From Eledone cirrhosa (taxonomy: Eukaryota), in NCBI GenBank assembly GCA_964016885.1, contig OZ024766.1:14570001-14634000 (forward strand): a DNA stretch of 64,000 nucleotides. The letters run 5' to 3'. Each line of letters begins with the position of its first letter. The first letter of the stretch is position 1. Both the position numbers and the translations under genes were made by a program. Shown here piece by piece: positions 1-37,112 of this stretch. The notes below the pieces were generated by a model. That model ran no database searches. It saw only the letters and a program-made list of their open reading frames with translations, and had not been told where the DNA came from.

Positions 1-464
1 CAACAAATTAAATATAACCTCTGCATATATATATATATATATATATATATAATACAACATTAGAATTACTACTACATTTTACTTTCTATCTCTCTGCCTC
101 TTCCACTTTTAGTCTCCATTCTTCCCACTTTCTCTCTCTCCCTCTCTCTCTGTCTCTCTCACATCTCTTTCTCTCCCGCTATCTCCCTCTCTCGATATCC
201 CTCTCTTTCTCTCTCTCTCTGTCTCTCTCGCCCCCTCTCTCTTTATCTCTCCTCCTGTCTCTCCCATACACTTACCTAAGGTCATGTAATTTAACTGGGT
301 GTGACTTTCTCTAAAAGTTAATACAAAGACTTGCTTTCAACAGACAGAAACATAGCTACGATGTTGCACACTCATATCATGTGTCTGTATGGCTGACTGT
401 CTGAACTTCATACAGAAATAAAAAACCCACACAACCAACATTCTGGGGTTGATAAAATATAATT

Positions 465-1535
465 GTTTCTAATTATATTGACTAATTATATTTACTAATA
501 ATATTGAGTAATAATATTGACTAATTATATTGACTAATTATATTGACTAATTATATTGAGTAATAATATTGAGTAATAATATTGACTAATTATATTGACT
601 AATTATATTGACTAATTATATTGACTAATTATATTGACTAATTATATTGACTTATATTGACTAATTATATTTACTAATAGTATTGACTAATTATATTGAC
701 TAATTATATTGACTAATTATATTGACTAATAATATTGACTAATTATATTGACTAATTATATTGACTAATTATATTGACTAATTATATTGACTAATTATAT
801 TGACTAATTATATTGACTAATTATATTTACTAATTATATTGACTAATTATATTTACGAATAATAGTAACTAATTATATTAACTAATAATTGTTTCTACGT
901 TAGGCACAAGGCCAGCAATTACCCAGTACATTACTGGTACTTTATTTTATCGACCCCGTAAGGATGAAAGGCAAAGTTAACCTCATTAACTAATTATATT
1001 GACTAATTATATTAACTAATAATATTAACTAATATTATCACCTAATAATATTAACTAATAACATTCACTAATTATATTAACTAATAATATTAACTAATAT
1101 TATCAACTAATAATATTCACTAATAATTTAAATAATTTTTACATTAGGCACAAGGCCAGCAATTACCCCAGTGTATTACTGGTACTTTATTTTATCAACC
1201 CCGTAAGGATGAAAGGCAAAGTTAACCTCGGCGGGATTTGAATTAGTTAATATTATTCGGTGGATTGGCAGTATCGGTGGAGCGTCGGACGCCATGCTTT
1301 GATGCATAGAGTTATATAATTAGTAAATATTATTAGTTAATATAATTAGTTAATATAATTAGTTAATATTATTAGTTAATATAATTAGTTAATATTATTA
1401 GTTAATATTATTAGTTAATATTATTAGTTAATATTATTTAGTTAATATTATTAGTCAATATAATTAGTTAATATTATTAGTTAATATAATTAGTTAATAT
1501 TATTAGTTAATATTATTAGTCAATAATAATATTAA
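465..1535. repeat. 13-bp AT-rich minisatellite (TTGACTAATTATA)n plus a related array in inverted orientation, interleaved with SINE fragments
   Basis: Forward array ~465-890 and reverse-orientation array (TAATATTATTAGT)n ~1315-1535. Present in every full unit with variable length, e.g. ~16461-17260, 21670-22310, 26780-27600. Confidence 0.95.
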
Positions 1536-1536
1536 T

Positions 1537-1722
1537 GGCAGTGGATTGGCAGTATCAGTGGAGGGTCGGACGCCATGCTTTGATGCATAGAGTTACGGCC
1601 CTTGCCATTCTGAGTTCAAATCCCACCGAGGTTAACTTTGCCTTTCATCCTTACGGGGTCGATAAAATAAAGTAGCAGTAATTCACTGGGGTAATTGCTG
1701 GCCTTGTGCCTAACGTAGAAAA
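1537..1722 (+). mobile_element. tRNA-derived SINE (abundant cephalopod-type family)
   Basis: GGCAGTGGATTGGCAG head, B-box-like GAGTTCAAATCCC and core TTTGCCTTTCATCCTTACGGGGTCGATAAAATAAAGTA. Many further copies or fragments on both strands, e.g. 890-985, 1140-1242, 1790-1945, 27300-27479, 36780-36957, 54800-54910, 62053-62190. Confidence 0.85.
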
Positions 1723-1987
1723 AATTATTAACTAATATTTCTAACTAATAATATTGATTGTTGACTAGAAATTTAGAGATTATTTTAATGGTTTCTGATT
1801 TAGATGCAAGGCCAACACATTTGGGGAAGGGGTGTTGATTGACCCCAGTGTGTTACTGGTACTTTATTTTATCAACCCAGTAAGGATGAAAGGCAAAGCT
1901 TACCTTGATGGGATTTGAACTCAGAACGTAAAGGGCCGTAACTGGGTTCAAATCCTACTGAAGTTATAGCTCTAGCTTTCATCCTAA

Positions 1988-2345
1988 CAGGGTTGATAAA
2001 GGAAAGTACCAGTAACGTACTGGGGTTGATAAAGTAAAGTACCAGTAATGTACGGGGGTTGATAAAGTAAAGTACCAGTAACGTACTGGGGTTGATAAAG
2101 TAAAGTACCAGTAATGTACTGGGGTTGATAAAGTAAAGTACCAGTAACGTACTGGGGTTGATAAAATAAAGTACCAGTAATGTACTGGGATTGATAAAAT
2201 AAACTACCAGTAACGTACTGGGGTTGATAAAGTAAAGTACCAGGAATGTACTGGGGTTGATAAAGTAAAGTACCAGTAATGTACTGGGGTTGATAAAATA
2301 AAGTACCAGTAATGTACTGGGGTTGACAAAATAAAGTACCTGGAC
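1988..2345. repeat. 33-bp minisatellite (GTACCAGTAA[T/C]GTACTGGGGTTGATAAAGTAAA)n, unit 1
   Basis: About 11 copies here and about 20-25 in other units (6863-7615, 12619-13437, 18387-19073, 23041-23729, 28841-29494). It produces the spurious 11-aa YQPQYITGTLL ORFs. Confidence 0.96.
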
Positions 2346-34905: not shown

Positions 34906-35354
34906 AATGTGTCTGTTGATTTGGCATATTGTTGATTAGTTTAAGAGAAGTTCGAAGATAATAGTAAGATATGCACTCAGTATTTTGAATCTGTCTGCAG
35001 AATTCCCTAGACCTTTGTCACTTAGCAGAACTTAATGACTTTAGCTTTTAAAGAATCTCCCTTTTCTTTAATTCTATCGAGCATGAATGACCCCCCACTG
35101 ATTTTATAGACATCTGCTAGCTTAAGAGAAACTTATTGACAAGGAATGGTATGCCATCCGGAACTTGTTTATAGATTTCTGTCTGCCTTTGTTACTCTAA
35201 AAACATAAATAAATATAAATTAACTATAGCTATGTAGAATTAGCCTTTAATGAATTCCCTTCTCTATCAACCAATGACCTGCACCCATCCCACTCCCCAC
35301 CCTCTCCTACCACTTGTAGAGACCTATAAATACCATATTTATTTTTTGATACCC

Positions 35355-35405
35355 AGATTCCTGATGATTTCTAATGAATGAAACAGTTCTAGTCCTGTAG
35401 AATCT
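35355..35405 (+). ncRNA. Type I hammerhead ribozyme motif in Penelope pseudo-LTR
   Basis: AGATTC-CTGATGA-T TTC taat GAA T-GAAA-CAG ttctagtc CTG-TA-GAATCT. Stem I is AGATTC/GAATCT, stem III is ACAG/CTGT, and the GUA triplet predicts cleavage after 35399. Confidence 0.8.
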
Positions 35406-35561
35406 CATCTATATTAAAACTATTATACTCTGCTATGTATTGAGTACCTTACTTACTGTGGTTACCTCCGATTCAACCCGGAATAACGTATATATATATA
35501 TATATTTCGTTTCTGAATTTGTTTAGCAAGATTCTTTATCTGAAATCGTGTGTTGAAACCG

Positions 35562-36098
35562 ATATTGTTATACTTTGGGAGGGTCATGTTGCCAATAAGA
35601 AACACACGCACCAGTTGCTTTCACTTCAATTTAATTTATTATATATTTATAAATTTACAAATTTATAAATTTCTGGTTGGTTGGTTGGTTCCACAACCAG
35701 ATAGTTGTTTATATATATATAGTCATAGTTCTTTCGTCACACACTCTGTGACCTCTTCAGTGACTGGGGATTTCTTTCTTCGTTTCTGTGCCTTTCTTTT
35801 CTTCTATCCTACGCCATTTTTTTTGTGTGTCACACAAACAAAATGGCGTAGGATAGAAGAAAGGAAAGGCACAGAAACGAAGAAAGAAATCCCCAGTCAC
35901 TGAAGAGGTCACAGAGTGTGTGACGAAAGAACTATGACTATATATATATAAACAACTATCTGGTTGTGGAACCAACCAACCAACCAGAAATTTATAAATT
36001 TGTAAATTTATAAATATATAATAAATTAAATTGAAGTGAAAGCAACTGGTGCGTGTGTTTCTTATTGGCAACATGACCCTCCCAAAGTATAACAATAT
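35562..36098. repeat. Near-perfect 537-bp palindrome centred on 35830
   Basis: Arms of 268 bp with very few mismatches and a 1-nt spacer. Mirror ORFs 35550..35903 (+) and 35757..36095 (-) give nearly the same peptide. Confidence 0.95.
35895..35939 (+). ncRNA. Minimal, possibly degenerate hammerhead motif (mirror copy at 35721-35765, minus strand)
   Basis: AGTCA-CTGAAGA-G GTCACA gagtg TGTGAC-GAAA-GAAC-TA-TGACT. Stems I and II pair, but stem III is very short. Confidence 0.55.
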
Positions 36099-37112
36099 AT
36101 ATATATATATATATATATATATATATATATATATAAATAATATATTAATAAATGGAAACTATATTTTTAAAACCATATTTATTTTATTATACATATTTCA
36201 AGGCAACCAAGGCAAACTGTTGAGTGCTTTATATCAGTTATAAAAATGTTTAAGCTTATTGAATCCCAACAAATTAAATATAACCTCTGCATATATATAT
36301 ATATATATATATATATATATATATGTATATATATATATATATATATATATATATATATATATATATGTATATATATATATATATATATAATACAACATTA
36401 GAATTACTACTACATTTTACTTTCTATCTCTCTGCCTCTTCCACTTTTAGTCTCCATTCTTCCCACTTTCTCTCTCTCCCCCTCTCTCTGTCTCTCTCAC
36501 ATCTCTTTCTCTCCCTCTATCTCCCTCTCTCGATATCCCTCTCTTTCTCTCTCTCTCTATCTCTCCTCCTGTCTCTCCCATACACTTACCTAAGGTCATG
36601 TAATTTAACTGGGTGTGACTTTCTCTAAAAGTTAATACAAAGACTTGCTTTCAACTGACAGAAACATAGCTACGATGTTGCACACTCATATCATGTGTCT
36701 GTATGGCTGACTGTCTGAACTTCATACAGAAATAAAAAACCCACACAACCAACATTCTGGGGTTGATAAAATATAATTGTTTCTACTTTAGGCACAAGGC
36801 CAGCAAATACCCAGTTCATTACTGGTACTTTATTTTATCGACCCCGTAAGGATGAAAGGCAAAGTCAACCTCGGCGGGATTTGAACTCAGATCGTAAAGG
36901 GACGTAACTATGCTGGAAAGCATGGCGTCTGACCCTCTACCGATACTGCCAATCCACTAATACCAGTGACATACTGGGGTAGATTTAATAGACTAAAACT
37001 AACTTTACCTTTCATACTTCTGGGGTTGATAAAATATGGTACCAGTGACATACTGGGGTAGATTTTATAGAATAGCTTAACACACACACACACATTTATA
37101 TATATATATATA

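What the first reader, a model, noticed from the sequence alone, without database searches (positions are those of the whole stretch)
1..36785. Exon-bearing macrosatellite: a gene growing by whole exon+intron tandem amplification of one EGF module
Seen: six near-identical 138-bp symmetric (phase 1-1) EGF exons with intact splice sites, spaced 5271, 5822, 5636, 4656 and 5765 bp apart, each duplicated with ~5 kb of intron. Known: phase 1-1 EGF exons can be added or skipped without frameshift, and MEGF10/Draper/SCARF-like receptors and some receptor phosphatases have such repeat ectodomains. Inference: this is a very young, probably copy-number-variable EGF array that could give length-polymorphic or alternatively spliced ectodomains, e.g. 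for recognition or adhesion. No other convincing exon of the host gene is visible here.
Basis: partly seen in the sequence, partly recalled or inferred. Interest (0 to 1): 0.75.

Follow-up and report, generated by a model that had tools for sequence, protein, structure and literature searches.

The report
Orphan EGF-exon macrosatellite outside its gene
One EGF exon of a single-copy cell-surface receptor gene on another chromosome sits here, far from its neighbour exons, in a 21-unit tandem array of about 5 kb per unit; the copies collect cysteine-breaking changes at the same rate as the intron around them, so the array is likely a non-functional by-product of duplication, not a growing gene.

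Summary
Observation confirmed and extended. The six 138-nt phase 1-1 EGF exons are the end of a 21-unit array; two sister arrays (28 and 13 exon copies) lie on the same contig, and a 28-mer of the exon has 71 exact genome matches.

The 'growing gene' reading fails for this array:
- No neighbour exon lies within 160 kb upstream or 82 kb downstream.
- Each unit joins about 3 kb of receptor-gene DNA to about 2 kb of unrelated flank.
- Exon and intron vary equally (12/138 vs 52/671); 10 of 12 exon alleles change the protein, two remove a cysteine.
- All copies carry F6L and S31R relative to the parent.

The parent is on contig C22: galactose-binding (F5/8C-like) domain, over 50 intact EGF exons, and the only transmembrane exon match. 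It has been scattered as at least 27 young fragments; those examined lack the membrane anchor.

Likely origin: template-switch capture, then unequal crossing-over. No RNA was available. Interest is modest.

The parts
2384..2521 (-). EGF exon copy (array unit W16), 138 nt, phase 1-1
7655..7792 (-). EGF exon copy W17 (E25Q plus one synonymous change)
13477..13614 (-). EGF exon copy W18, cysteine 10 lost (C10R)
19113..19250 (-). EGF exon copy W19
23769..23906 (-). EGF exon copy W20
29534..29671 (-). EGF exon copy W21, first unit in exon orientation (one synonymous change)
1..36784 (-). Right-hand part of the 21-unit macrosatellite (whole array about C27:14,494.7-14,606.8 kb); ends at the last junction-2 site
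5359..8420 (-). Captured receptor-gene piece E of one example unit: about 630 bp upstream intron, exon, 33-mer and 13-mer minisatellites, start of the downstream intron
8418..8489 (-). Junction 1 (same in all six units): 8-bp microhomology plus a linker of about 63 bp that also occurs at a third locus (C27:15,094 kb)
8481..10958 (-). Foreign flank F of the example unit: high-copy short repeat, LINE-like remnant, microsatellites and a 205-bp segment; belongs to the zinc-finger block, not to the receptor introns; ends in junction 2 (13-bp microhomology)
31893..36094 (.). 4.2-kb insertion into a (TA)n run of the first F segment, absent from the sister array B: 188-bp inverted copy (31893-32080 / 35234-35421), 150-aa ORF, 2-kb microsatellite, poly-T, 529-bp palindrome (35566-36094); Penelope-like by recall only
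44724..45026 (-). C2H2 zinc-finger ORF, part of the upstream block shared by all arrays examined
55448..56293 (-). C2H2 zinc-finger ORF, 281 aa, 10 fingers, same duplicated block

Best explanation
This is a 21-unit tandem array of one EGF exon that lies outside any intact copy of its gene and is likely a neutrally decaying macrosatellite rather than a coding ectodomain. Shown: the parent is a single gene on C22 with a galactose-binding F5/8C-like domain, more than 50 EGF exons and one transmembrane exon; pieces of it are scattered as young duplicates; each array unit is receptor piece E plus foreign flank F; sister array C ends in an uninterrupted F. Inferred: a replication template switch at short microhomologies copied E from one of the duplicates into the zinc-finger block and produced F-E-F. 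Unequal crossing-over or conversion then expanded (F-E)n, lately in blocks of several units, and segmental duplication copied the block to three places on C27 and, recombined with the gene's 3' half, to C19.
For: Isolation: among 21 named parent exons searched, C27:14,634-14,814 kb holds only E01 and F58a (14,760 kb) and E23 (14,803 kb), and 14,410-14,500 kb holds only the next fragment's E01/F58a (14,413 kb) besides the array; same-strand zinc-finger genes intervene upstream. A family profile found no further non-EGF family exon between those two fragments. Chimeric unit: only about 630 bp upstream and about 1 kb downstream of the exon match the parent introns (1055 and 3541 bp long). Neutral pattern in 62 array copies: 12 exon alleles in 138 nt vs 52 in 671 nt of intron (p 0.73); 10 of 12 non-synonymous, as expected from 109:26 sites; P 0.0095 under omega 0.2. 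Seven of the 10 hit columns invariant or nearly invariant among 15 paralogous exons (G4, G7, C10, C22, G37, G40, Q44). Pairwise pN/pS is 2.75 against 0.31 in the parent's in-gene array. All 73 aligned non-parent copies share F6L and S31R; the F6 allele and the TM exon each have 1 genome match, on C22. Sister fragments carry cysteine losses, a stop and an E04 frameshift. Junctions. Block duplications inside the array: units 2-6 = 11-15 and 7-10 = 17-20.
Against: 61 of 62 array exons are full length, all with AG/GT and no stop or frameshift; only about 0.5 nonsense and 0.3 splice hits are expected from 12 changes (my estimate), so this is uninformative but not supportive. The selection test rests on 12 alleles and only weakly excludes omega 0.3 (P 0.049). 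The upstream F58a exon ends in phase 1 (sequence), so a long-range in-frame splice into the array is formally possible. For arrays B and C only about 20-24 kb of upstream flank was examined. Parent-versus-fragment differences (34 N, 13 S on 1934:466 sites, ratio about 0.63) are not fully neutral.
Confidence: 0.8

Rival explanations
1. One reading: the array is the expanding ectodomain of a functional host receptor, spliced over very long introns (5' fragment at 14,760 kb, then 21 exons, then the gene copy at 14,414 kb).
For: Intact phase 1-1 splice sites in 21 of 21 units; phase-compatible F58a donor upstream and same-strand family exons downstream; the parent gene does grow this way.
Against: Introns of 160 and 82 kb would span same-strand zinc-finger genes. 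The upstream fragment has only half of the F5/8C domain. The downstream copy has C33W in E01, a split E04 and no TM exon. Variation is neutral. Array C has no exact E01 match upstream on its strand.
Confidence: 0.07
2. The array is transcribed by read-through from the upstream zinc-finger block and gives non-coding or decoy RNAs, or serves as a conversion donor for the receptor fragments.
For: The three C27 arrays and the C19 triplet examined have the same same-strand zinc-finger block upstream (98-99.5%). C19 triplets share identical unit cores with array B and run on into exons E16-E23.
Against: No signal peptide or start exon was found. The C22 parent exon keeps its own alleles (97% to the unit), so there is no sign of conversion into the functional gene.
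Confidence: 0.08
3. Largely an assembly artefact: few real units, expanded or falsely duplicated by the assembler.
For: Internal blocks differ by only 2 of 13,601 and 5 of 10,731 unmasked bases, and W03-06 vs B05-08 by 10 of 10,721. Such blocks, or arrays W and B, could be haplotypes or mis-expansions.
Against: Adjacent units differ by about 1% (33 of 3332) and there are 48 distinct 809-bp cores among the full-length copies. In public run X2 the contig over the exon has depth 1213 while listed long contigs from elsewhere have 4-11 (the tool warns that depth is no copy number). The arrays have different ends and a private insertion.
Confidence: 0.05

Closest known systems
LPA kringle IV type-2 repeat (PMC7613587, passages read)
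   Same: Unit of about 5.5 kb (5550 bp in LPA), exon-bearing, tens of copies, unit subtypes, small VNTR differences; a homologous pseudogene lies nearby (LPAL2).
   Different: KIV-2 lies inside the expressed gene between its neighbour exons and sets protein size. This array has no neighbour exons, half of its unit is foreign DNA, and its exon varies like intron. The in-gene 18-exon array on C22 is the true analogue.
Macrosatellites D4Z4, DXZ4, RNU2 (search listing and abstract starts only)
   Same: Multi-kb tandem units, tens of copies, copies at more than one locus.
   Different: D4Z4 and RNU2 units carry a whole gene; this unit carries a single internal exon without start or stop.
Mollusc F5/8C-EGF(n)-TM receptors, e.g. 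Octopus sinensis P0001/P0004 with a PTP domain, and 'MEGF10/11-like' proteins
   Same: The parent has the same order: EGF-like, EGF, F5/8C-like domain, EGF array, TM; 47-58% identity per EGF module.
   Different: No PTP or kinase exon was found in 111 kb after the parent's TM exon; more than 50 EGF exons; the window array is only one detached exon of it.
CapA satellite derived from an intron (bioRxiv 10.1101/213868, listing and abstract start only)
   Same: A piece of a single-copy gene turned into tandem satellite DNA.
   Different: Here the monomer is about 5 kb, includes an intact exon and is very young (about 1% divergence).

Membership tests
Macrosatellite | Head-to-tail units of several kb in long arrays | tested here: met
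   21 units of 4.5-5.8 kb
Macrosatellite | Copy number varies between alleles or individuals | not testable with these tools
   One assembly only; paralogous arrays differ (21/28/13)
In-gene exon array (LPA KIV-2 type) | Units flanked by the gene's own preceding and following exons | tested here: not met
   E14 and E16 absent within 160 kb upstream and 82 kb downstream
In-gene exon array (LPA KIV-2 type) | Unit made only of the gene's exon and introns | tested here: not met
   1.7-2.5 kb per unit is foreign
In-gene exon array (LPA KIV-2 type) | Symmetric exon phase with intact splice sites | tested here: met
   61 of 62 array copies
In-gene exon array (LPA KIV-2 type) | Spliced into mRNA | not testable with these tools
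   No RNA holder listed
In-gene exon array (LPA KIV-2 type) | Purifying selection on the exon | tested here: not met
   10 N: 2 S, two cysteine losses; exon and intron densities equal
F5/8C-EGF(n)-TM-PTP receptor (parent gene, C22) | F5/8C-like domain, EGF array and TM exon | tested here: met
   PF22633 at E 1.3e-4 on a half-domain exon; 51 of 51 detected EGF exons with AG/GT; TM exon
F5/8C-EGF(n)-TM-PTP receptor (parent gene, C22) | Cytoplasmic PTP domain | tested here: inconclusive
   None by profile or tblastn up to 1.90 Mb; no catalytic-motif match near it; a divergent or distant domain is not excluded
MEGF10/Draper/CED-1 | N-terminal EMI domain (definition recalled) | tested here: inconclusive
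   No EMI hit on the three 5' exons scanned; F5/8C-like domain instead; the extreme 5' exons were not found

The most novel reading that the evidence does not exclude
Detached exon macrosatellites act as an off-site reservoir for ectodomain evolution: the array recombines back onto receptor fragments (as the C19 triplets joined to exons E16-E23 show) and is spliced over long distances, so that length-variable, anchorless EGF polymers or new chimeric recognition proteins are made from a satellite.
Probability: 0.1. Interest if true: 0.7.

Novelty: new member of a known kind. Interest (0 to 1): 0.32.

Why it matters
As read here it is a clean snapshot of how a symmetric exon escapes its gene and becomes satellite DNA, with junctions, an uninterrupted-site state and block duplications still legible. 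It is also a warning: intact phase 1-1 exons in tandem are not evidence of a growing gene, and annotators would likely build false 'MEGF10-like' models here. The more useful lead is the C22 receptor (over 50 EGF exons, an in-gene array under selection, and dozens of fragments on at least six other contigs), a candidate length-polymorphic recognition receptor. Four literature searches bearing on this listed no paper describing such an array in a cephalopod.

Tried and rejected
- Single-exon protein search found no candidate; the 15-exon alignment worked.
- No RNA holder was listed, so expression is untested.
- PTP domain: 86-aa search (24 matches) and two motif patterns (2 and 7 matches) gave none at the family's loci; profile scans of about 0.9 Mb of fragment regions gave none.
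- TM scan after E23 in the C16 and C20 fragments found nothing. LINE-like and Helitron ORFs follow E23 there.
- A 42-bp target-site duplication at the array's left end was considered and dropped: array C ends in an uninterrupted F, so the W and B ends are better read as a later deletion.
- Helitron capture was considered: the Helitron lies 3' of the fragments and none is in the unit; not supported.
- C4 and C18 hits of the 205-bp segment are not the empty site (31-bp match only; 93-96% partial paralog).
- Lack of cover of parts of F in runs X5 and X6 was not used.
- A read-depth calibration of this exon against its neighbours was not obtained, so copy number from reads is uncalibrated.
- The parent's cytoplasmic tail was not identified.
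- The Penelope label for 31893-36094 has no Pfam support; listing only.
- The allele count mis-handles multi-hit codons; the pairwise value is used instead.
- Earlier-findings look-ups returned nothing.
- No supplements were consulted.

Full report
1. Observation. The window is G000:C27:14,570,001-14,634,000 of a 3.0-Gb genome. The best protein hit of an alignment of 15 family exons is from Octopus sinensis; with the C2H2 arrays this suggests an octopod (inference).

2. Extent. The array runs 15 units further left, 21 in all. A 28-mer of the exon has 71 exact matches: three C27 arrays, four triplets on C19, five singles on C20, one on C16, two more on C27. Fetched in full, the C27 arrays hold 21 (W, this one), 28 (B, one truncated) and 13 (C) exon copies. 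Mean divergence of the 809-bp core is about 1% within and between arrays. Units 2-6 repeat as 11-15 and 7-10 as 17-20, at 0.015% and 0.047% difference. In public run X2 the exon contig has depth 1213 against 4-11 for listed long contigs from elsewhere: many copies are real, the exact number is uncalibrated.

3. Host gene. In four of the five single copies fetched (C16, two on C20, C27:15.15 Mb) the exon is one member (E15) of a series of EGF exons; the fifth (C27:15.10 Mb) has no EGF neighbour in 30 kb. The series starts with an EGF exon and a two-exon F5/8C-like domain. Its first exon has 27 and exon E23 has 23 exact matches. The fragments examined on C16, C18, C19, C20 and C27 stop after E23, followed on C16, C19, C20 and C27 by LINE-like and Helitron sequence. 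Only on C22 does the series go on: 51 of 51 pattern-detected EGF exons have AG/GT, 49 are 138 nt, and a TM exon follows at 1,788.8 kb. That TM exon and the parent allele of E15 each have one genome match. E04 is intact on C22 but frameshifted on C16 and split on C27. No PTP was found after the TM exon.

4. The window array is outside the gene. Between 14,600 and 14,814 kb there are only a fragment with E01 and half of the F5/8C domain (160 kb away) and a lone E23. Between 14,414 and 14,495 kb there is no family exon. Same-strand zinc-finger genes lie upstream. Arrays B and C likewise lack E16-E21 downstream; upstream of them only 20-24 kb was seen. All three arrays and the one C19 triplet checked share the upstream zinc-finger block at 98-99.5%. 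On C19 the third unit runs on into E16-E23, with no 5' exons in 51 kb upstream.

5. Unit anatomy and origin. Each unit is E plus F. E is 631 bp of the parent's 1055-bp upstream intron, the exon, and about 1 kb of the 3541-bp downstream intron with expanded 33- and 13-mer minisatellites. F is 1.7-2.5 kb continuous with the zinc-finger block. Junction 1 has an 8-bp microhomology and a linker of about 63 bp also found at a third locus; junction 2 has a 13-bp microhomology at the end of a high-copy short repeat (the SINE label is recalled). Array C ends in an F whose repeat is uninterrupted, the pre-capture state; W and B end in a shortened E joined into that repeat. So F-E-F is the inferred founder. 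Microhomology with a templated insert is the signature attributed to replicative template switching (established knowledge; listings only). Unequal exchange explains (F-E)n and the block duplications (inference).

6. Selection. In 62 array copies the exon has 12 variant alleles in 138 nt and the intron 52 in 671 nt (Fisher p 0.73). Ten are non-synonymous against 9.7 expected under neutrality; P is 0.0095 under omega 0.2 and 0.049 under 0.3. They include C10R, C22W and G40R (10 copies). All 73 non-parent copies aligned carry F6L at a nearly invariant column and S31R. By contrast, 18 tandem E14-type exons inside the C22 gene (spacing mostly 0.4-0.75 kb) keep all cysteines and give pN/pS 0.31, against 2.75 for the arrays. 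Against this reading: no stop, frameshift or splice loss in 61 full copies, few alleles in all, and the 11 non-array copies show no exon variant.

7. Comparison. The array works like a macrosatellite seeded by a captured exon. It resembles LPA KIV-2 in unit size (about 5550 bp; passages of PMC7613587) but fails that type's defining tests (flanking exons, gene-only unit, selection). The parent resembles mollusc F5/8C-EGF-TM receptors. PMC9334734 (passages) only lists MEGF10 orthologs in Aplysia and adds nothing specific.

8. Verdict. Real, young, most likely non-functional (0.8). New member of a known kind; interest 0.32. The C22 parent is the better follow-up target.

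Noticed in passing
G000:C22:1,664-1,789 kb (L161-L169, L149-L152): Apparently intact single-copy receptor gene: F5/8C-like domain, more than 50 EGF exons, TM exon; an internal block of 18 near-identical EGF exons at 1,713.8-1,725.0 kb, partly in a 1.17-kb two-exon period, pN/pS 0.31. Cytoplasmic tail not identified.
   Followed up: partly
C20:3.5-5.3 Mb, C27:12.9-15.4 Mb, C16, C18, C19, C23: At least 27 young duplicates of the receptor's 5' part; on C20 in tandem at about 100-130 kb spacing; those examined lack the TM exon and carry cysteine losses, a stop or a frameshift.
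   Followed up: partly
C19:35.40, 37.13, 38.67, 39.69 Mb: Four triplets of the unit; the one followed (35.40 Mb) continues into exons E16-E23, i.e. array DNA rejoined to a gene half.
   Followed up: partly
window 31893-36094: Insertion into (TA)n with a 188-bp perfect inverted copy, a 150-aa ORF resembling a Penelope GIY-YIG end (recalled; no Pfam hit), a 2-kb microsatellite and a 529-bp 99% palindrome.
   Followed up: partly
window 46335-53060: 89-bp minisatellite, about 75 copies, between two duplicated zinc-finger gene segments; no long ORF.
   Followed up: no
window 58532-60507: LTR-retrotransposon-like remnant: 200-bp direct repeats (58532-58731 / 60309-60507, 91%) and a CCHC zinc knuckle ORF.
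   Followed up: no
C16:797.6-803.3 kb (L057) and paralogs on C19, C20, C27: Helitron Rep/PIF1 coding sequence a few kb 3' of E23 in the truncated receptor copies.
   Followed up: no
C14:9.15-9.16 Mb, C22:17.64 Mb, C10:12.09 Mb: PTP-domain matches inside long uninterrupted frames (579-1254 aa), three in tandem on C14: possible intronless phosphatase genes.
   Followed up: no
C27:14,370-14,371.8 kb: A 54-bp minisatellite derived from the tail of an EGF exon (reads as repeated 'CGPGYK' units), i.e. exon sequence turning into a minisatellite.
   Followed up: no
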